NCBI GenBank assembly: GCA_011939005.1
Contig: GCA_011939005.1_4858.1
Origin: a phage
Direction: 5' to 3' (one strand)
DNA length: 64,000 nt
Shown here piece after piece: positions 1 through 56,024 of the stretch. A program made the position numbers and the translations under genes. How positions within the stretch are numbered: position 1 is the first letter of the stretch; each line of letters opens with the position of its first letter. Under the pieces are notes generated by a model. That model was given only the letters and a program-made list of their open reading frames with translations. It was not told the origin of the DNA and ran no database searches.

Positions 1-891
1 GGTTTATCATACCTCACGCAGAATCTGTAAATTTTAATCAGCCAGGTACTGGCGTTTCACAACGGGAGTACCCACCCCTCTCGTCTGTTCCGAGCCGTCA
101 AGATCCGATCACCCCACTTTGGAGTTATCCCCCAAGTCTGCGGTTCTACACGCAGACCCCTTTTCGACGCAACGCCGAATTCGAATCAGTTTTGGCCCGA
201 CGCCAGAGCGGAATCAGCGATAACTATCGGAGGTAAGTTCAACGACGTCTCTCCGCTGCCCAGTCCTCTGGCGCTGCCACGGTCAACTCGGATTTTGTCA
301 TGGGTGCGCAGTCGACTTTCTCGACACTCTCGCAAACCGAACTACGCCCGACGTAGCACCGTCGGCAGGTCGGTTATTTACCGAGTACCTGAATGGGTGG
401 TGATTGTCGGAATCCCCGCCGACGCTCACCGGTTCTGTTCCACGGCGAAAGTTTTCCAGAACATAATAAATCACGCAGTGTTAGATTGCGCTTTGTCGAA
501 GACACCACGGTAGGTATTTTCGAAAAAGCGTCCTGGGTATCAGTCCCAGGACTTGGAGCCCTAGTGTGCAGGGTTTAAAAAGTGATTGGACCATTGGCGC
601 GGTCAATCGCTATTCGCATATAACAACAAACTCACGTAATCAAAAAATTACCGGCTCGAGGCGTAGGCGTCCAGGAGCCGGTGAGTCACACAGCAGTGAG
701 TCCCTCTGCGGGGATTTTCGTGGAGCTTGTCGTTGGAATAAAAATCCGTCCCCGGACGGGTTGGTGTTGTGGGTCGACTTGTCAGAGTCTACCTACCAGG
801 GAGGCGACCACCAAAGCTATGGGTTTTTGGACATCGAGTGGTGGTCTGAACACACGATAGGGAAACCACGTAAAAAATACACAGGGTACCC

Positions 892-1135
892 GATCTCGGT
901 CTTCCGTCCGATCACGATCTCTTAATAAGGATCACGCGCGCGCCCGCACGCGTTTTAAGATCTTAATATATTAATATATTTATTTATATAAATAATTATA
1001 ATAATTAAATATAATACCTAAAGGTATTATTATATTTAATATTATTATATATTTTAAAAGATCCTGGAGGATACGGGTGCGCGCACGCGCACGCGTATAA
1101 GGAAAGGGTCTTCGACCCGATCCACAGGATCGATC
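892..1135. promoter_or_regulatory. Candidate cis-acting element (replication-origin-like): A+T core 953-1059 with central palindrome 1011-1030, flanked by alternating Pu/Py GC tracts 933-952 and 1077-1096, 9 GATC sites
   Basis: Direct reading: GATC at 892, 910, 916, 930, 959, 1060, 1119, 1128, 1132; core has only 6 G/C in 107 nt; function is inference. Confidence 0.3.
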
Positions 1136-1686
1136 TAAAAAACAATCTAAGTGATTGTTTTAAAAAGAAATTTTGAGAATTAGATTAAATTATCCCCTAA
1201 GGGGGATTTTAGAGTGAGTTAAACAACCCAAAGAACTCGTAAGTAACCGACAGTGTGTGTCGGTTACAGAACGATCCAGTTTTCACCCAGACATGGCACG
1301 AAGTGCTACCCAACGTGTGATCGTCGCGGCGACCGGCGACCGTCGTCCCGGAACCGAAACGGGAATGGCTCTCTCGCGCTCTCAGCGGCCCGCTGGCGCG
1401 ATTTTCCGGTAGGGGGAACCCAAGTGTACTGGGTCAGTTATAAATCTCGTTCTAGCGCTTTCTAGAGCGTTTTTAATAACCGGTTAAAAAACATACAATC
1501 CTGAATCCCCATTCCCCGTATTTCCTCGCCCCGACAAAAATAAATTCACCGACTCGATGCAAGACCCCCTCTAAAACGCACGTAATTGACCCTAGAAAAC
1601 GATAAACTATCAAAAATGAGCTACCCTACATCCAGACCACTTAATCGTTTTCTGGTGTTTCCTAGACCTCTTTAATCGGATGGTTA

Positions 1687-1734
1687 AAAAAACAAAAAAA
1701 ATAAGATTGGCGTACTCCCCGAAGAGAGTACGCC
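1687..1734 (-). terminator. Intrinsic terminator (stem 1709-1717/1726-1734, UUCG-type loop on minus RNA, U-tract from plus A-run 1686-1704)
   Basis: 9-bp GC-rich stem directly 3' of minus-strand gene ending at 1742, followed on minus strand by long U-run. Confidence 0.7.
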
Positions 1735-3395: not shown

Positions 3396-3467
3396 TGGGT
3401 AAAATCTCCTTCAGGTATACTCTCAGTATGATAACATATATCCGTAAATTTTTAGAGGTTTAGCGCC

Positions 3468-7261: not shown

Positions 7262-7305
7262 ACAATCTCCATACCTCCACCCCCGAAGGGGTGGAGGAAG
7301 GTTTG

Positions 7306-15365: not shown

Positions 15366-15421
15366 CAAAAAAAAACAAGCGTTACCTCTCTCCATTTGGA
15401 GAGAGGTACGTTTTATTTTTT
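15366..15421. terminator. Bidirectional intrinsic terminator (hairpin 15380-15410) after sheath/tube-like gene pair
   Basis: 13-bp stem with one bulge, A9 run upstream and T-rich run 15411-15421 downstream. Confidence 0.75.
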
Positions 15422-15955
15422 CGGTTGGCTAGCATCAATTTCACGCTGCGCATTAGCACGAATTAATAGGTTCTTAATTTGCAGCAGTAACAGATAAGTT
15501 ACGAGCACATCGAACTCAGACGGTGGTTGAACGTCACCTAGGTCAGGATGGGCAATCTTCCAGAGAGACATCCCGTCTTTATAACCTTGCCCCGATTCGG
15601 CCGCGAGAATGTCGTTGGCAGACATGCTAATGAGTTCGTGTTCCAGCCGACGGAGTACCTCGTCACCCAGCTCTACTTGCAACAAGCACTTAAAGCGGAT
15701 GATAAAGCCCGCGATAATACGCCCGCTACTACCTTTGGTGATCGTGTCGAGAAAACGCTGGTAGCCGTTGATGGTGTGCGGAATAATCTCAACCGGATAT
15801 TCGGCAATGGTTTCGAATGCGTCTTCCAGTATAGCTTTCATGGACAACGTAAACACGTCACCGATTTGATTGATGTGTCGAATGATGTCTTCACGTTTCA
15901 TATCAGACGGGATCGGTTTGATATCGTCCTGACCGAGAGTATTGAGTTGTTTCAT
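15413..15955 (-). CDS. Hypothetical protein, 180 aa
   Basis: ORF with SD ggag 5 nt upstream. Confidence 0.6.
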   Translation of the reverse strand: MKQLNTLGQDDIKPIPSDMKREDIIRHINQIGDVFTLSMKAILEDAFETIAEYPVEIIPHTINGYQRFLDTITKGSSGRIIAGFIIRFKCLLQVELGDEVLRRLEHELISMSANDILAAESGQGYKDGMSLWKIAHPDLGDVQPPSEFDVLVTYLLLLQIKNLLIRANAQREIDASQPKK

Positions 15956-15970
15956 TGTAGCTCCAAAATC

Positions 15971-16003
15971 AAAAAAAATAGGGCAGTCATAAGACCACCC
16001 TAA
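15971..16003 (-). terminator. Weak terminator-like hairpin plus U-tract immediately upstream of SD of gene 15413-15955
   Basis: Imperfect stem taggg..cccta with A8 run on plus strand; weak. Confidence 0.3.
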
Positions 16004-16011
16004 TGTTTTCT

Positions 16012-16374
16012 TTAGAGGAAGCCTTTTTCTTTCAAGGCTTCTTCAATGATTTCTGCAATGTGCGCAGCACGTGTTTCACCGCCGTCGGCATCAGGCCCGA
16101 ACTCTTCCGGGTCAAAATCCTGCAAGGCGTCTACGATAACTTGTTTCGCGTTTTCTGACTGTGACATGGTGTATTCCTCTCGATAAAATTTAGGATTAGC
16201 AGCAAGCGCAATAGGCGCAGGCATAGGTTTAGGGAAGGTGACGGTGAGACCGATTTCCTCGTGTGACGCAATGGTGCCATCCCAACGTAACCCAGTAGCA
16301 GGATTCACATTAGGATGGCATTCCACTTTAGCCCCGAGTAGCTCAGCGAGTTCCTTTGGGCTGGACGGAATCAT
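16012..16374 (-). CDS. Hypothetical protein, 120 aa
   Basis: ORF in operon context. Confidence 0.5.
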   Translation of the reverse strand: MIPSSPKELAELLGAKVECHPNVNPATGLRWDGTIASHEEIGLTVTFPKPMPAPIALAANPKFYREEYTMSQSENAKQVIVDALQDFDPEEFGPDADGGETRAAHIAEIIEEALKEKGFL

Positions 16375-17560: not shown

Positions 17561-17594
17561 GTAAATATTCCTTACGGTAATGGTCGATTAACTA

Positions 17595-18437: not shown

Positions 18438-18530
18438 TGTAAATACTCCTTCTGGGTAATAGTCGATTAAAGCGTTAACGTGTAACGCTCACCTAAGTAA
18501 TATATATCTCAGTTCTTTTTGAATGCAATT

Positions 18531-39420: not shown

Positions 39421-39476
39421 AACAAAAAATAAGTATTACGAGTACCCCGTCGGGGTACTCGTTTGCTTTATTTTTT
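39421..39476. terminator. Bidirectional intrinsic terminator (hairpin 39439-39461)
   Basis: 10-bp stem cgagtacccc/ggggtactcg; A-run before and T-run after; lies between convergent genes ending 39411 and 39475. Confidence 0.75.
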
Positions 39477-39912: not shown

Positions 39913-40813
39913 CTTTTACAGTAAGGGAACCGTTTACTTCGATTTCAGCGGCGGTCATGTCTGCTTCTTTAACGAATATACCGTCCGCGTTCAGGAAACC
40001 CTTACGGTCTTTGATTTCATCCCACGCCAGAGAGAAACACTGTTCCAGAGTCATATCGTACGCATTAGCCAGCGCATTGGCGTATTCGACCATCTGCGCG
40101 AAGTGACATTCGATCATTACCGCGTCGCTGTTCTCGAAGTGTTTATATTCGAGTTGCTTAGCTGAGTCGATGCCGGCTTGATCCCAGATGTAATCAACAG
40201 CTGCTGTGAGATGGAAACGCATTTTGTGGAACAAGTAATGACTGTTCCCGGCGTGTGGTTTCTTTGAACGTGCGTCGTTGACGTATGTGCTGATATCGGT
40301 TGAGTCAAACTTAATGAGTTCCATCAAGTTAACCAACACGACCAGAGCATCACCGATACCGTCCATGATGTAACGACGTTTGTTTTTACTGATACCGGTT
40401 GCCGCTTCACCGTCTTCTTCGTAGAGTTTGGTGGCTTGGCTATACCAGACGCCGTTATCCAGAATACCACGCGCTTTAGACCAACCCATAACGTTAGTAA
40501 TACATTGTGGGATGGTGTACAAAGGTACGTAACGCGGACGATCAACCGTACCACGATACTCGACACCTTCCAACGTCCACGGCATTTCGAAATCATTTAT
40601 TTCCAAACGATGGTCGCCTGTGAAGACTTTACCTTCGACGTAAGTGTGACCGGTTTCACTGTTCACGCACAGGGTGTACAGTTTCTCAAAGGACCACGGT
40701 TTAACAAACTGACGTTGGCAGAATCCAGCCAGAAGCTCATTAATCTGTGCCAGGTACTGGTTAGGTTCAACAATAACGTTATACGGAATCTGGATAGTGA
40801 AACGATCGCCCAT
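39872..40813 (-). CDS. Hypothetical protein, 313 aa (C-terminal half weakly reminiscent of all-alpha NTP pyrophosphohydrolase; unverified)
   Basis: Strong SD aaggag; functional guess is low confidence. Confidence 0.55.
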   Translation of the reverse strand: MGDRFTIQIPYNVIVEPNQYLAQINELLAGFCQRQFVKPWSFEKLYTLCVNSETGHTYVEGKVFTGDHRLEINDFEMPWTLEGVEYRGTVDRPRYVPLYTIPQCITNVMGWSKARGILDNGVWYSQATKLYEEDGEAATGISKNKRRYIMDGIGDALVVLVNLMELIKFDSTDISTYVNDARSKKPHAGNSHYLFHKMRFHLTAAVDYIWDQAGIDSAKQLEYKHFENSDAVMIECHFAQMVEYANALANAYDMTLEQCFSLAWDEIKDRKGFLNADGIFVKEADMTAAEIEVNGSLTVKDEAFTDGEETVHG

Positions 40814-40825
40814 TTTGATAGCTCC

Positions 40826-40866
40826 TTAAACAAAAAAATAACTAGGGTGTCCATATGGACACCCTA
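40826..40866 (-). terminator. Terminator-like hairpin 40843-40866 with U-tract abutting SD of gene 39872-40813
   Basis: 10-bp stem tagggtgtcc/ggacacccta; plus A-run 40831-40839; SD aaggag immediately downstream on minus strand. Confidence 0.55.
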
Positions 40867-40875
40867 ATACGTATT

Positions 40876-45443: not shown

Positions 45444-45491
45444 TATAGTTCTCCTTGAGGTCTTTTACATACGTACAGCCGTGGCCGTAAA

Positions 45492-45854
45492 TTATCGAAG
45501 AATAAGAATTTGACTACTGTCGTGCACATTGTACGTATTCATCCTGGGCTTGCTAGGCGGGTTGAATCCCATCAATAATTCGCACAATACACGACCAGGC
45601 TGCCCACTGAAGATAACCAGATGCGTGGTGTCTTCGCCGTCTCCAAGTCGGGAGAAAGCCACGCGTGGTGATGCAGCTTGCGTGTAGAGCTGCAGCAGTT
45701 GAAACTTACCTTCTGCGAAGGGAGCAAGTTTCTCTTTCCACTCGACCATAGATGATTCGTCGAGTTCTAACGTGCGTACACGTCTCCCGGCGCTATCCGC
45801 AACTCCACAAACAAACACGATTCCGTGACGATTAAAGAAGAAGCCGATTTGCAT
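45492..45854 (-). CDS. Hypothetical protein, 120 aa
   Basis: SD aaggag immediately after terminator U-tract. Confidence 0.5.
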   Translation of the reverse strand: MQIGFFFNRHGIVFVCGVADSAGRRVRTLELDESSMVEWKEKLAPFAEGKFQLLQLYTQAASPRVAFSRLGDGEDTTHLVIFSGQPGRVLCELLMGFNPPSKPRMNTYNVHDSSQILILR

Positions 45855-45869
45855 TTACATACTCCTTAA

Positions 45870-45908
45870 GATAAAAAATGAAGATACCCTCTCCCGAAGG
45901 AGAGGGTA
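45870..45908 (-). terminator. Intrinsic terminator (hairpin 45885-45908, C(UUCG)G loop) abutting SD of gene 45492-45854
   Basis: 10-bp stem taccctctcc/ggagagggta, loop cgaa on plus; A-run 45872-45877 on plus. Confidence 0.7.
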
Positions 45909-45912
45909 CGAC

Positions 45913-54131: not shown

Positions 54132-54229
54132 CAGGTGTTACCTTTTTGCAGTTCTCGTACATAAGGTTTGGGTGATACGTAAAAGACTTACTATGTAGCC
54201 CAATCCCTTATATATTCGAGGTTGATAGA

Positions 54230-54985: not shown

Positions 54986-55039
54986 AAAGTAAGCAGTACC
55001 CACTCCCCTTACGGGAGTGGGTAGGCTTTATTTTATTTG
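54975..55039. terminator. Bidirectional intrinsic terminator between convergent genes (hairpin 54997-55023)
   Basis: 11-bp stem tacccactccc/gggagtgggta, T-rich run 55027-55037, A-rich run 54975-54988. Confidence 0.75.
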
Positions 55040-55956
55040 CATTTAGAACCGTTGACAAATGTCGGCGGTATCCATTTCAAAATCTTTGTCCGATTCCCGT
55101 CACGTGGACCGAGCCAGTAAGTACACCAGTGTGCACGACGCATATGCGCACATCTGCTACCTTGTGTTCTTTTCTCCGTATCAGTATCAAATTCTTCAAG
55201 ATACTCGCTTTGTGCTTTTACGGTGGAGAGGACAGTCGGTTTAGATTTTGGTTCAATGTGGTAATTGGCGATACGTTTCTTTCCAGTTAATTGTCTCAGT
55301 TTGACGGGTGTAGGGTTGTGCGGGATCAGTGAGAATGTAAACATGGTAGCGCCGACAATGCGTAACGTTTTCTCATTGGCCGGCGTACCAGTTTCCGCCA
55401 CACGCAAGGATACAAAGCCGTCACCCACGTCCACGATTTCAAAGGTTTCCCCCTCGATACGTTTTCCAAAAATCATCATTGTTAAACAATCTTTCCCTTT
55501 AAACATTCGCCGACCGAAAACGTAAGTCTTTTCTTGGATACCGATATCTTTAGCGCGATAGCACACTGAAAAGGAGACGGCCCAACCGGGAATCTTGTCT
55601 ATCCAGCTGCGTGGTATCTCAGTGAGAACGTCGCCAAGTAGAACTTGTTCAAAAATATTAAGATCAAATTCCATTTGGATACCCCCGTATCGCCAGCCGT
55701 AGGCAAGAGACAGGAAGTCTGCGGTGCATTCTTCGGCGAAGCAGTTCTTTAGGAACGCCTCAATCGGTATAAAGTGCTGGCCTATCTCGCCACAATGGGC
55801 TATTGCGTATTGCTCGATGATGGCGGGATCTCCACTTCTGGATTTCACACGTTCGTCGATTTTAGTAAGACCGTTTAAGAAATTACTCGGGGATTCGCGC
55901 ATACCGATTACATCTACATTTACCGATTCTGCCAAATCAAAAAGAAAGCTGTCCAT
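55033..55956 (-). CDS. Hypothetical protein, 307 aa, monocistronic (terminators on both sides)
   Basis: SD aaggag 7 nt upstream; C-terminal Cys/His cluster RCAHMRRAHWC. Confidence 0.6.
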   Translation of the reverse strand: MDSFLFDLAESVNVDVIGMRESPSNFLNGLTKIDERVKSRSGDPAIIEQYAIAHCGEIGQHFIPIEAFLKNCFAEECTADFLSLAYGWRYGGIQMEFDLNIFEQVLLGDVLTEIPRSWIDKIPGWAVSFSVCYRAKDIGIQEKTYVFGRRMFKGKDCLTMMIFGKRIEGETFEIVDVGDGFVSLRVAETGTPANEKTLRIVGATMFTFSLIPHNPTPVKLRQLTGKKRIANYHIEPKSKPTVLSTVKAQSEYLEEFDTDTEKRTQGSRCAHMRRAHWCTYWLGPRDGNRTKILKWIPPTFVNGSKCK

Positions 55957-55983
55957 TTAATACTCCTTTAGATTAATGGTCGA

Positions 55984-56019
55984 TTAAAATAAAACTACGG
56001 ACACCCCGAAGAGTGTCCG
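55984..56019 (-). terminator. Intrinsic terminator (hairpin 55998-56019, UUCG loop on minus RNA)
   Basis: 7-bp stem cggacac/gtgtccg directly after stop at 56025, A-rich plus run upstream. Confidence 0.6.
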
Positions 56020-56024
56020 TTTAA

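What the first reader, a model, noticed from the sequence alone, without database searches (positions are those of the whole stretch)
40822..40866. Terminator hairpin and U-tract directly abutting the next gene's Shine-Dalgarno, with no room for a promoter
At 40822-40866, 45855-45908 and 15956-16003 the arrangement on the transcribed strand is GC hairpin, U-run, AAGGAG/GGAG, about 6 nt, ATG, with only about 25 nt between hairpin and start codon. A similar but looser arrangement is at 55957-56019. Either termination is partial and the downstream genes depend on read-through or antitermination, or the hairpins are processing/stability elements that define mRNA 5' ends, or the phage polymerase initiates within the AT-rich tract.
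Basis: partly seen in the sequence, partly recalled or inferred. Interest (0 to 1): 0.45.

Follow-up and report, generated by a model that had tools for sequence, protein, structure and literature searches.

The report
Terminator hairpins carrying phage promoter starts
In this SPN3US-like giant phage the hairpin-plus-T-run signals pressed against the next gene are ordinary transcription terminators, but two of the four also carry the phage polymerase's four-base start signal (TATG) in their loop, so the 'missing' promoter probably sits inside the terminator.

Summary
The window is a Seoulvirus (SPN3US-like, phiKZ-related) jumbo phage, and the genes at the four sites lie on the minus strand. 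All four sites are real: a stable GC hairpin, a T-run, a Shine-Dalgarno and an ATG 23-40 nt after the stem. The stems are kept by compensatory changes in relatives, so they are selected structures, most likely intrinsic terminators. The layout is common: 16 of 38 strict intergenic hairpins in SPN3US lie within 33 nt of the next start codon.

'No room for a promoter' holds only for sigma-70 promoters. phiKZ-type phages use their own RNA polymerases, and the promoter is TATG at the start site, with or without a TTAC element about 20 nt upstream. In SPN3US, TATG is enriched 21-40 nt before start codons. TACG-N14-TATG is spacing-specific (22 copies against 3-10 at other spacings) and mostly intergenic.

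- **Site 1** carries exactly TACG-N14-TATG, with TATG in the hairpin loop.
- **Site 3** has an invariant loop, TTATGAC, over a covarying stem.
- **Further cases:** four more hairpin families in SPN3US and relatives show the same design.
- **Sites 2 and 4** have no such start signal and probably depend on read-through.

No transcript data exist. The finding is a new variant of known parts and is moderately interesting.

The parts
40841..40868 (-). S1 hairpin ATTAGGGTGTCC-ATAT-GGACACCCTAGT between gp032 and gp031 (MazG-like); terminator for the gp039-gp032 transcript
   Evidence: -20.1 kcal/mol, z -4.0. The core GTGTCC-WTAT-GGACAC is invariant, and one pair is compensated (GC to UA), in 9 relatives whose MazG is 43-98% identical.
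40852..40855 (-). S1 TATG in the loop and 3'-arm junction; putative start site G at 40852, 39 nt before the ATG
   Evidence: Read. TATG is invariant in all relatives. The distance falls in the genome-wide TATG peak at -21 to -40 and in the phiKZ 5'UTR mode of 31-40 nt (PMC8244752).
40870..40873 (-). S1 TACG, exactly 14 nt upstream of TATG; the upstream element of the phiKZ-type 'middle' promoter
   Evidence: TACG-N14-TATG occurs 22 times in SPN3US against 3-10 times for N10-N19. Of the 22, 14 are in non-coding DNA, and S1 is one of them.
40831..40840 (-). S1 T-run (TATTTTTTTG)
   Evidence: T-rich tails are kept in all relatives although their sequence varies.
40811..40827 (-). S1 Shine-Dalgarno AAGGAG and ATG of gp031
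   Evidence: SPN3US annotation.
15979..16002 (-). S3 hairpin TAGGGTGGTC-TTAT-GACTGCCCTA between gp013 and gp012; it ends an early-promoter operon (gp017-gp013)
   Evidence: z -3.6. In 8 relatives 100% of cells are paired, 4 of 10 pairs carry compensatory changes, and 0 of 500 shuffles reach the covariation score.
15988..15991 (-). S3 TATG in the loop; putative start site G at 15988, 33 nt before the ATG of gp012
   Evidence: TTATGAC is invariant while the stem covaries.
15953..15978 (-). S3 T-run (15971-15978), GGAG (15961-15964) and ATG (15953-15955)
45884..45909 (-). S2 hairpin GTACCCTCTCC-TTCG-GGAGAGGGTAT between gp041 and gp040; a terminator with no start signal
   Evidence: z -4.5. Three different but self-complementary stems occur in relatives, always with a UUCG loop.
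45852..45878 (-). S2 T-run (45873-45878), AAGGAG (45862-45867) and ATG of gp040
   Evidence: The TATG 3 nt before the ATG is not kept in L015.
55997..56020 (-). S4 hairpin ACGGACAC-TCTTCGG-GGTGTCCGT after gp053
   Evidence: z -2.6.
55954..55996 (-). S4 T-run, the leader block AATCGACCATTA (55974-55985), AAGGAG and the ATG of a 307-aa gene absent from SPN3US
   Evidence: The same block precedes the SD of about 10 SPN3US genes, mostly the first genes behind early promoters.
45468..45491 (-). Reference example: a complete TTTACG-N14-TATG promoter for gp039 inside a 48-nt intergenic gap
7270..7297 (-). Hairpin without a T-run, immediately followed by TATG-GAG...ATG of the terminase gene (the phiKZ-style layout)
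   Evidence: Compare the phiKZ hairpins followed by TATG.
18497..18509 (-). Early (virion-polymerase type) promoter AGATATATATTAC that drives the operon ended by S3

Best explanation
The four elements are intrinsic terminators of a phiKZ-like jumbo phage. Each closes a multi-gene transcription unit inside a run of same-strand genes.

At S1 and S3 the terminator and the next promoter are superimposed. The phage non-virion RNA polymerase needs only TATG, starting at the G, helped at S1 by TACG 14 nt upstream. That TATG sits at the junction of the loop and the 3' arm.

- Transcripts arriving from upstream contain both arms. They fold the hairpin and stop in the T-run.
- Transcripts started at the loop G contain only the 3' arm. 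They cannot fold it, so they run through the T-run, which becomes a U-rich 33-39 nt leader with the Shine-Dalgarno, and express the next gene.

This uncouples the downstream gene from the upstream unit. At S3 it separates an early, virion-polymerase operon from gp012.

S2 and S4 lack a start signal. Their downstream genes are expressed by read-through of an imperfect terminator.

Shown: the structures, their conservation and covariation, and the motif statistics. Inferred: termination, initiation at the loop G, and read-through.
For: 1. Identity. The window is 96-97% identical to SPN3US and its relatives. SPN3US encodes a full-length homologue of phiKZ GP123, the subunit that binds TATG (PMC12809450).

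2. No sigma-70 signal. Sigma-70-like sites are below the shuffle expectation: 16 against 22, 10 against 18, and 20 against 25.

3. The phiKZ promoter grammar holds here.
- TATG is enriched 2 to 2.5-fold at -21 to -40 before the 264 SPN3US start codons, and TACG peaks about 18 nt further upstream.
- T(-18) and A(-17) are conserved upstream of these TATGs.
- TACG-N14-TATG occurs 22 times against 3-10 times at other spacings, and 14 of the 22 lie in the 6.4% of DNA that is non-coding.

4. S1 is one of these TACG-N14-TATG sites. Its TATG and inner stem are invariant across relatives, and AAC[AG] is kept at N14.

5. S3. The stem covaries (4 compensated pairs, 0 of 500 shuffles), while the loop TTATGAC never changes.

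6. The design recurs at non-homologous sites.
- Upstream of SPN3US gp144 the stem is swapped from ACAC/GTGT to GCCC/GGGC and TATG is kept.
- SPN3US 144279 has TACG-N14-TATG in a 16-bp hairpin, then a T-run, an SD and an unannotated 130-aa ORF.
- Two families in L009-L011 each carry A-rich + AC[AG] at N14.

7. TATG at the loop junction occurs in 3 of 63 T-run hairpins against 11 of 1852 coding hairpins. It is the commonest 4-mer there that does not derive from UUCG.

8. Convergent (pure) terminators in the window have no TATG loop.

9. S2. In relatives where a different gene follows the same terminator, a TATG promoter is inserted about 28 nt before that gene. Before gp040 there is none.

10. 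phiKZ and 201phi2-1 hairpins of this kind are mapped 3' ends with variable read-through (PMC10914365, PMC11512511).
Against: - No 5' or 3' end data exist for any Seoulvirus in the library searched.
- TATG is only four bases. The 33-40 nt distance to the ATG follows partly from geometry (arm + T-run + SD), so it is not independent evidence.
- The stop codon TAA of the upstream gene often falls where the upstream element is expected. This could mimic that element.
- S3 in the window has no TAC at N14 (AAAAC-N13 instead).
- The validated phiKZ late promoter p119L is not in a hairpin.
- In phiKZ, TATG follows hairpins on both strands, as CATAA-hairpin-TTATG, even where no gene follows. This hints at a role in termination rather than initiation.
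- Strand asymmetry of loop TATG is modest, 16 sense against 9 mirrored, partly because ATAT loops are palindromic.
- Invariant loops are also seen for UUCG, so loop invariance alone is weak evidence.
Confidence: 0.6

Rival explanations
1. All four are plain leaky terminators inside operons, and every downstream gene is made by read-through or antitermination. The loop TATG at S1 and S3 is an A/U-rich loop variant with no promoter function.
For: The arrangement is common without TATG: 16 of 38 strict hairpins lie within 33 nt of the next ATG, and most have UUCG loops. More distant relatives have the same hairpin-T-run-SD layout before the MazG and gp012 homologues with UUCG or CUCGU loops. Read-through and interlinked transcription units are reported for phiKZ and 201phi2-1 (PMC10914365, PMC11512511).
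Against: It does not explain several observations:
- TATG is invariant while stems covary in at least five independent hairpin families.
- The upstream element sits at an exact N14 spacing in S1, in SPN3US 144279 and in the L009-L011 families.
- The weak 8-nt loop GATCATAT is retained upstream of gp144.
Confidence: 0.25
2. TATG next to or inside the hairpin belongs to the termination signal of the phage polymerase. The beta-lobe pocket that binds non-template TATG at promoters would also bind it during elongation and cause a pause that favours termination. Alternatively, the perfect palindrome is an operator for a dimeric DNA-binding protein.
For: In 30 kb of phiKZ, 6 of 16 hairpins are followed within 6 nt by TATG and preceded by CATAA, on both strands and regardless of whether a gene follows. 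This matches the published terminator motif ...GGBYTTATKYYGT (PMC10914365). GP123 binds single-stranded non-template TATG (PMC12809450). The S1 inner stem is conserved in sequence, not only in structure.
Against: At S1 and S3 the TATG lies about 20 nt upstream of the expected release point, so it is outside the bubble when the polymerase reaches the T-run. The upstream TACG at N14 and the constant presence of an SD and ATG 33-40 nt downstream are not expected for a pause signal. The S3 stem sequence varies freely, which argues against an operator.
Confidence: 0.08
3. The hairpins are RNA processing or stability elements. They would act as 3' protective stem-loops after endonucleolytic cleavage in the AU-rich tract, which would then define the 5' end of the downstream mRNA.
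For: A stem-loop next to an AU-rich single-stranded tract is the classical context for RNase E cleavage (established knowledge, not tested here). The window encodes proteins that the SPN3US record annotates as a ribonuclease and a 3'-5' exoribonuclease (gp059, gp060).
Against: Stems of 10-12 bp are too short for RNase III. No Rfam family matches. The tails match terminator geometry and the TTAT-type tail of mapped phiKZ terminators (PMC10914365). Nothing in the sequence specifically calls for cleavage.
Confidence: 0.07

Closest known systems
Intrinsic (Rho-independent) terminators of phiKZ-like phages, as mapped by ONT-cappable-seq in phiKZ and 201phi2-1 (PMC10914365, PMC11512511)
   Same: A GC-rich stem-loop just after a stop codon and a T-rich tail that often contains TTAT (S1 TTATTTTTTT, S4 TTTTATTTT). 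Bidirectional versions occur at convergent genes, and many sit inside gene arrays with partial read-through.
   Different: The loops here are mostly UUCG, against HWWD in phiKZ. The tails are long T-runs rather than TTATKYYGT. At S1 and S3 a TATG lies in the loop instead of directly after the stem.
phiKZ non-virion RNA polymerase promoters: late T(-3)ATG(+1), and middle AAanTTACc centred near -24 (PMC4666361, PMC7598289, PMC12809450)
   Same: TATG lies 21-40 nt before start codons. The upstream (T)TTAC[AG] has its C 16 nt before the T of TATG, that is, at -19 from the start. No -35/-10 elements are present. A GP123 homologue is present.
   Different: Here the spacer between the two promoter elements doubles as the 5' arm of a terminator hairpin. 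The validated phiKZ p119L promoter has no such hairpin. No start site has been mapped in any Seoulvirus.
Phage N4 virion RNA polymerase hairpin promoters (PMC4496689)
   Same: A phage-encoded polymerase whose promoter includes an inverted repeat, with specific bases read in the loop.
   Different: N4 uses a single-subunit polymerase, a 5-7 bp stem, a 3-nt loop, a start about 11 nt downstream of the loop, and extrusion by supercoiling plus host SSB. Here the start would be in the loop, and there is no evidence that a DNA hairpin is needed.
Terminators with promoter activity, and polymerase recycling after termination (bioRxiv 10.64898/2026.02.12.705533; PMC6978380)
   Same: One short DNA segment carries both termination and initiation activity. 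After intrinsic termination, multisubunit polymerases stay on the DNA and can reinitiate nearby.
   Different: Those cases are T7 class II (non-hairpin) terminators read by E. coli polymerase, or in vitro single-molecule observations. They are not conserved natural hairpin modules of a phage polymerase.

Membership tests
Intrinsic terminator | Stable GC-rich stem-loop on the transcribed strand, just downstream of a stop codon | tested here: met
   All four sites have 10-12 bp stems, fold at -16.6 to -21.2 kcal/mol, and score z -2.6 to -4.5.
Intrinsic terminator | U-tract starting within 0-2 nt of the stem | tested here: met
   Met at S1 (UAUUUUUUU) and S3 (8 U), and at S4 (AGUUUUAUUUU). Only partly met at S2, where six U begin 6 nt after the stem.
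Intrinsic terminator | Pairing maintained by compensatory change in relatives | tested here: met
   S3 has 4 of 10 pairs compensated and 100% of cells paired. S2 has three alternative complementary stems. S1 has one compensated pair, and the rest are invariant. S4 was not tested.
Intrinsic terminator | RNA 3' ends in the U-tract | not testable with these tools
   No Seoulvirus transcriptome is in the library.
phiKZ-type non-virion polymerase promoter | TATG with the start at G, 20-45 nt before the start codon | tested here: met
   The sequence is present at S1 (G 39 nt before the ATG) and S3 (33 nt before), and invariant in relatives. It is absent at a usable position at S2 and S4. The genome-wide peak is at -21 to -40.
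phiKZ-type non-virion polymerase promoter | Upstream TTAC-type element at fixed spacing (middle class) | tested here: met
   S1 has TACG-N14-TATG, the spacing-specific and mostly intergenic motif. This feature is not met at S3 in the window, which would make S3 a 'late', TATG-only type.
phiKZ-type non-virion polymerase promoter | The genome encodes the cognate polymerase, including the TATG-binding beta-like subunit | tested here: met
   SPN3US gp189 against phiKZ GP123: E 1e-22 over the full length, syntenic with the major head gene. The gene lies outside this window.
phiKZ-type non-virion polymerase promoter | 5'-triphosphate RNA ends at the G, or in vitro run-off | not testable with these tools
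   This needs dRNA-seq, Cappable-seq or purified enzyme.
Sigma-70 promoter between hairpin and SD | -35 and -10 hexamers with a 16-18 nt spacer | tested here: not met
   No site falls in the four gaps. Window-wide counts are below the shuffle expectation.
RNase III processing site (T7 type) | About 20 bp or more of duplex, usually with an internal loop | tested here: not met
   The stems are 10-12 bp, and Rfam finds nothing.
N4-type hairpin promoter | 5-7 bp stem, 3-nt purine-centred loop, start downstream of the hairpin, single-subunit polymerase | tested here: not met
   The stems are 10-12 bp, the loops are 4 nt (WTAT), the putative start is in the loop, and the polymerase is multisubunit (PMC4496689).

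The most novel reading that the evidence does not exclude
The inverted repeat is not merely overlapped by the promoter but is part of how the promoter works, and it would supply the long-sought extra specificity beyond TATG. Two mechanisms are possible.

(a) Transient extrusion or easy melting of the palindrome presents the non-template TATG single-stranded to the beta-lobe pocket, which cannot open duplex DNA itself (PMC12809450).

(b) Polymerases that have just released RNA at the hairpin stay on the DNA and are handed directly to the TATG a few bases away. Termination and re-initiation would then be mechanically coupled (compare PMC6978380).

The phiKZ layout, with TATG directly after the hairpin on both strands, would be another form of the same coupling.
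Probability: 0.15. Interest if true: 0.8.

Novelty: new variant of a known kind. Interest (0 to 1): 0.5.

Why it matters
What makes a TATG a real promoter for phiKZ-type non-virion polymerases is an open question. The four bases are necessary but far too frequent to be sufficient (PMC4666361, PMC12809450).

A conserved module in which the TATG sits in the loop of a terminator hairpin, with the upstream element at fixed spacing, gives three things:
- a concrete, testable set of natural promoters in a genetically tractable Salmonella phage;
- a simple rule for how densely packed jumbo-phage genomes insulate neighbouring transcription units in about 60 nt;
- a natural counter-example to the view that promoter and terminator signals are separate sequences.

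For annotation, it warns that 'terminator abutting the SD' does not imply co-transcription in these phages.

If the loop TATG proves inert, the finding reduces to ordinary leaky terminators.

Tried and rejected
- Sigma-70 promoter scan: nothing in the gaps, and counts below chance.
- Rfam on the whole window: no family.
- Pfam on the eight flanking proteins: only a weak MazG hit, so no timing clue.
- Literature search for a Seoulvirus transcriptome: none found.
- Supplementary start-site and terminator tables of the phiKZ and 201phi2-1 papers: not held. I therefore could not test whether mapped phiKZ starts coincide with hairpins.
- phiKZ p119L: checked for a hairpin around its TATG and none found. 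A hairpin is therefore not required for a late promoter.
- Fetching relatives with the small proteins gp012 and gp144: returned only SPN3US itself. The neighbouring sheath and tail proteins worked.
- First S3 alignment (A2): used wrong coordinates and was discarded.
- TATG 3 nt before the ATG at S2: rejected as a start, because it would give a 4-nt leader and is not conserved in L015.
- AATCGACYATTA at S4: considered as a promoter and rejected. It lies downstream of mapped-type early promoters, at a fixed distance from the SD, so it is a leader element.
- The 33-40 nt TATG-to-ATG distance, and the TAA stop codon at -18, as independent evidence: rejected because hairpin geometry alone produces them.

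Full report
**What the window is.** A 3-kb piece around the finding is 96-97% identical to Salmonella phage SPN3US and its relatives (Seoulvirus). These are phiKZ-like jumbo phages that encode their own multisubunit RNA polymerases. I mapped the RefSeq annotation of SPN3US onto the window. The genes at all four sites are on the minus strand.
- S1 lies between gp032 and gp031 (MazG-like).
- S2 lies between gp041 and gp040.
- S3 lies between gp013 and gp012.
- S4 lies between gp053 and a 307-aa gene that SPN3US lacks.

**The observation.** Read on the minus strand, every site shows a GC-rich stem of 10-12 bp, a T-rich tail, a Shine-Dalgarno and an ATG. The gap from the end of the stem to the ATG is 27, 29, 23 and 40 nt for S1 to S4. 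The intergenic RNAs fold at -16.6 to -21.2 kcal/mol, 2.6 to 4.5 standard deviations below shuffles. At S2 the T-run begins 6 nt after the stem.

**Is it more than chance, and is it unusual?** I assembled the whole SPN3US genome from seven fetched pieces, with its 264 annotated genes.
- Strict hairpins are concentrated in the 6.4% of DNA that is non-coding: 114 of 213.
- Among 38 strict hairpins that precede a same-strand gene, 16 end within 33 nt of the start codon.

The layout is therefore real, selected and common in this genome.

Comparative data confirm selection on structure.
- At S3, eight relatives keep 100% pairing. Four of the ten pairs carry compensatory changes, and no shuffle reaches the covariation score.
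- At S2, relatives carry three different, perfectly complementary stems under an invariant UUCG loop.
- At S1, the inner eight pairs are almost invariant, with one GC to UA compensation.

T-rich tails are kept everywhere although their sequence drifts. Hairpins of this type are mapped 3' ends with variable read-through in phiKZ and 201phi2-1 (PMC10914365, PMC11512511). I conclude that they are intrinsic terminators. This is an inference, because no Seoulvirus transcript data are available.

**The promoter question.** Sigma-70-like sites are in fact rarer than in shuffles. phiKZ-type phages do not use the host enzyme.
- Their late promoters are just T(-3)ATG(+1). Middle promoters add AAanTTACc near -24 (PMC4666361, PMC7598289).
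[quoted passage not shown] SPN3US has a full-length, syntenic GP123 homologue.

I tested whether this grammar holds in SPN3US.
- TATG is enriched 2 to 2.5-fold at -21 to -40 before start codons, and TACG peaks about 18 nt further upstream.
- The TATGs in that zone show conserved T and A at -18 and -17.
- TACG-N14-TATG occurs 22 times, against 3-10 times for spacers of 10-19 nt. Fourteen of the 22 lie in non-coding DNA.

In the window, a full TTTACG-N14-TATG promoter plus leader occupies the 48-nt gap before gp039, and another precedes gp051. A complete promoter thus fits into gaps smaller than the four in question.

**Where the start signals are.**
- **S1** reads TAA-AA-TACG-N14-TATG. The 14-nt spacer is the 5' arm of the hairpin, and the TATG sits at the junction of loop and 3' arm (G at 40852, 39 nt before the ATG). 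S1 is one of the 22 genome-wide motif copies. In nine relatives whose MazG proteins are only 43-98% identical, the TATG is invariant and AAC[AG] stands at the same N14 position.
- **S3** has the loop TTAT followed by GAC. TTATGAC is invariant while the stem under it covaries. Its G (15988) is 33 nt before the ATG. TATGAC is also the start context before the tail-sheath gene and several others.

The design recurs at non-homologous places.
- Upstream of SPN3US gp144, the stem is swapped from ACAC/GTGT to GCCC/GGGC in relatives and the TATG is kept.
- At SPN3US 144279, TACG-N14-TATG sits in a 16-bp hairpin, followed by a T-run, an SD and an unannotated 130-aa ORF.
- At two sites in the more distant genomes L009-L011, each hairpin is preceded by an A-rich stretch and AC[AG] exactly 14 nt before the TATG. 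One example is AAAAAATTACA-N14-TATG.
- Among hairpins with T-runs, TATG at the loop junction occurs in 3 of 63, against 11 of 1852 coding hairpins. It is the commonest junction 4-mer that does not derive from UUCG.
- Pure terminators at convergent gene ends in the window have no TATG loop.

**Mechanism proposed.** RNA made from upstream contains both arms, folds, and is released in the U-run. RNA started at the loop G contains only the 3' arm, cannot fold it, and reads through the T-run. The T-run then serves as a U-rich leader ahead of the SD.

The surrounding units fit this picture.
- An early-type promoter (AGATATATATTAC, 18509-18497) drives gp017 to gp013 up to S3. The loop start then drives only gp012, up to the bidirectional terminator at 15383-15408.
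- The gp039 promoter drives gp039 to gp032 up to S1. The S1 start then drives gp031 and gp030, up to the bidirectional terminator at 39438-39462.

S3 would thus insulate a gene read by the non-virion polymerase from an operon read by the virion polymerase.

S2 and S4 have no TATG at a usable position.
- gp040 sits between terminator S2 and the promoter of gp039.
- In relatives where another gene follows the same terminator, a TATG is found about 28 nt before that gene.
- Read-through is therefore the likely source of gp040, and of the extra gene after S4. S4 carries only the leader block AATCGACCATTA, which is typical of early-operon leaders.

**Caveats.**
- All steps beyond sequence, structure and conservation are inferred.
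- TATG is short. The TATG-to-ATG distance and the A/T-rich stop-codon context follow partly from hairpin geometry.
- S3 in the window lacks the upstream element.
- The validated phiKZ promoter p119L has no hairpin.
- In 30 kb of phiKZ, 6 of 16 hairpins are followed within 6 nt by TATG and preceded by CATAA, on both strands. This matches the published terminator motif (PMC10914365) and could mean that TATG also acts in termination.
- The concept of a hairpin promoter has a precedent in N4 (PMC4496689). Multisubunit polymerases can reinitiate near a terminator (PMC6978380). These support, but do not prove, a functional coupling.

**Verdict.** The parts are known kinds. Their superposition, with the start site in the terminator loop, is a new variant that I could not find described.

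Confidence in the composite reading is about 0.6, and interest is 0.5.

Noticed in passing
window 17578-17589, 18457-18468, 55974-55985 (minus strand); SPN3US 65455, 94280, 114030, 167592, 223318, 224197 and others: A conserved 12-nt block, AATCGACYATTA, lies 3-8 nt upstream of the Shine-Dalgarno of about 10 genes. Most are the first genes behind early promoters (CAGATATATATTACyTAGGTGAG followed by a small variable hairpin). It looks like a shared leader or translation element of early mRNAs. Its function is unknown.
   Followed up: partly
window 55033-55956 (minus strand): A 307-aa gene with no Pfam match is absent from SPN3US, where gp053 directly faces gp052. Here it is bracketed by the S4 hairpin and the bidirectional terminator at 54997-55023, like an inserted single-gene cassette.
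   Followed up: partly
window 7262-7305 (minus strand): The hairpin before the large terminase gene has no T-run and is followed at once by TATG, whose G begins GGAG. A start there would give only a 9-nt leader. This is the phiKZ-style 'hairpin then TATG' layout.
   Followed up: partly
L105 (phiKZ 105000-135000), e.g. locus 10947, 15601, 21776, 28093: phiKZ terminator hairpins are flanked symmetrically by CATAA upstream and TTATG downstream. TATG, the late-promoter consensus, therefore follows the stem on both strands. The published motif notes only a 'TTAT region'.
   Followed up: partly
SPN3US 143745-144285 (minus strand), outside the window: An unannotated 130-aa ORF with a Cys/Gly/Ser-rich repetitive C-terminal half lies in a 540-nt gap that RefSeq annotates as non-coding. 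It is preceded by a TACG-N14-TATG hairpin module.
   Followed up: partly
window 3396-3467 and 54132-54229: Divergent gene pairs (gp003/gp004 and gp051/gp052) have TATG motifs on both strands, placed back to back or overlapping, each 29-40 nt before its own start codon. This suggests compact bidirectional promoters.
   Followed up: no
window 16012-16374 (minus strand): The gp013 ORF is 120 aa here but is annotated as 67 aa (204 nt) in SPN3US. The two share only the N-terminal 64 residues (86% identity).
   Followed up: no
window 1-1700: This stretch has few long ORFs and many short GC hairpins with T-rich tails on the minus strand. By coordinate arithmetic the window appears to run past the end of the linear SPN3US record here. 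A TTTACA-N14-TATG motif lies at about window position 30 (minus strand), matching the one 25 nt before SPN3US gp001 (HslV-like).
   Followed up: no
SPN3US 106826-109843 (gp142), outside the window: The 1005-aa 'tail protein' has 40-57% identical homologues in dozens of viral contigs of roughly 13-85 kb, far shorter than a jumbo-phage genome. This suggests a horizontally shared tail module.
   Followed up: no
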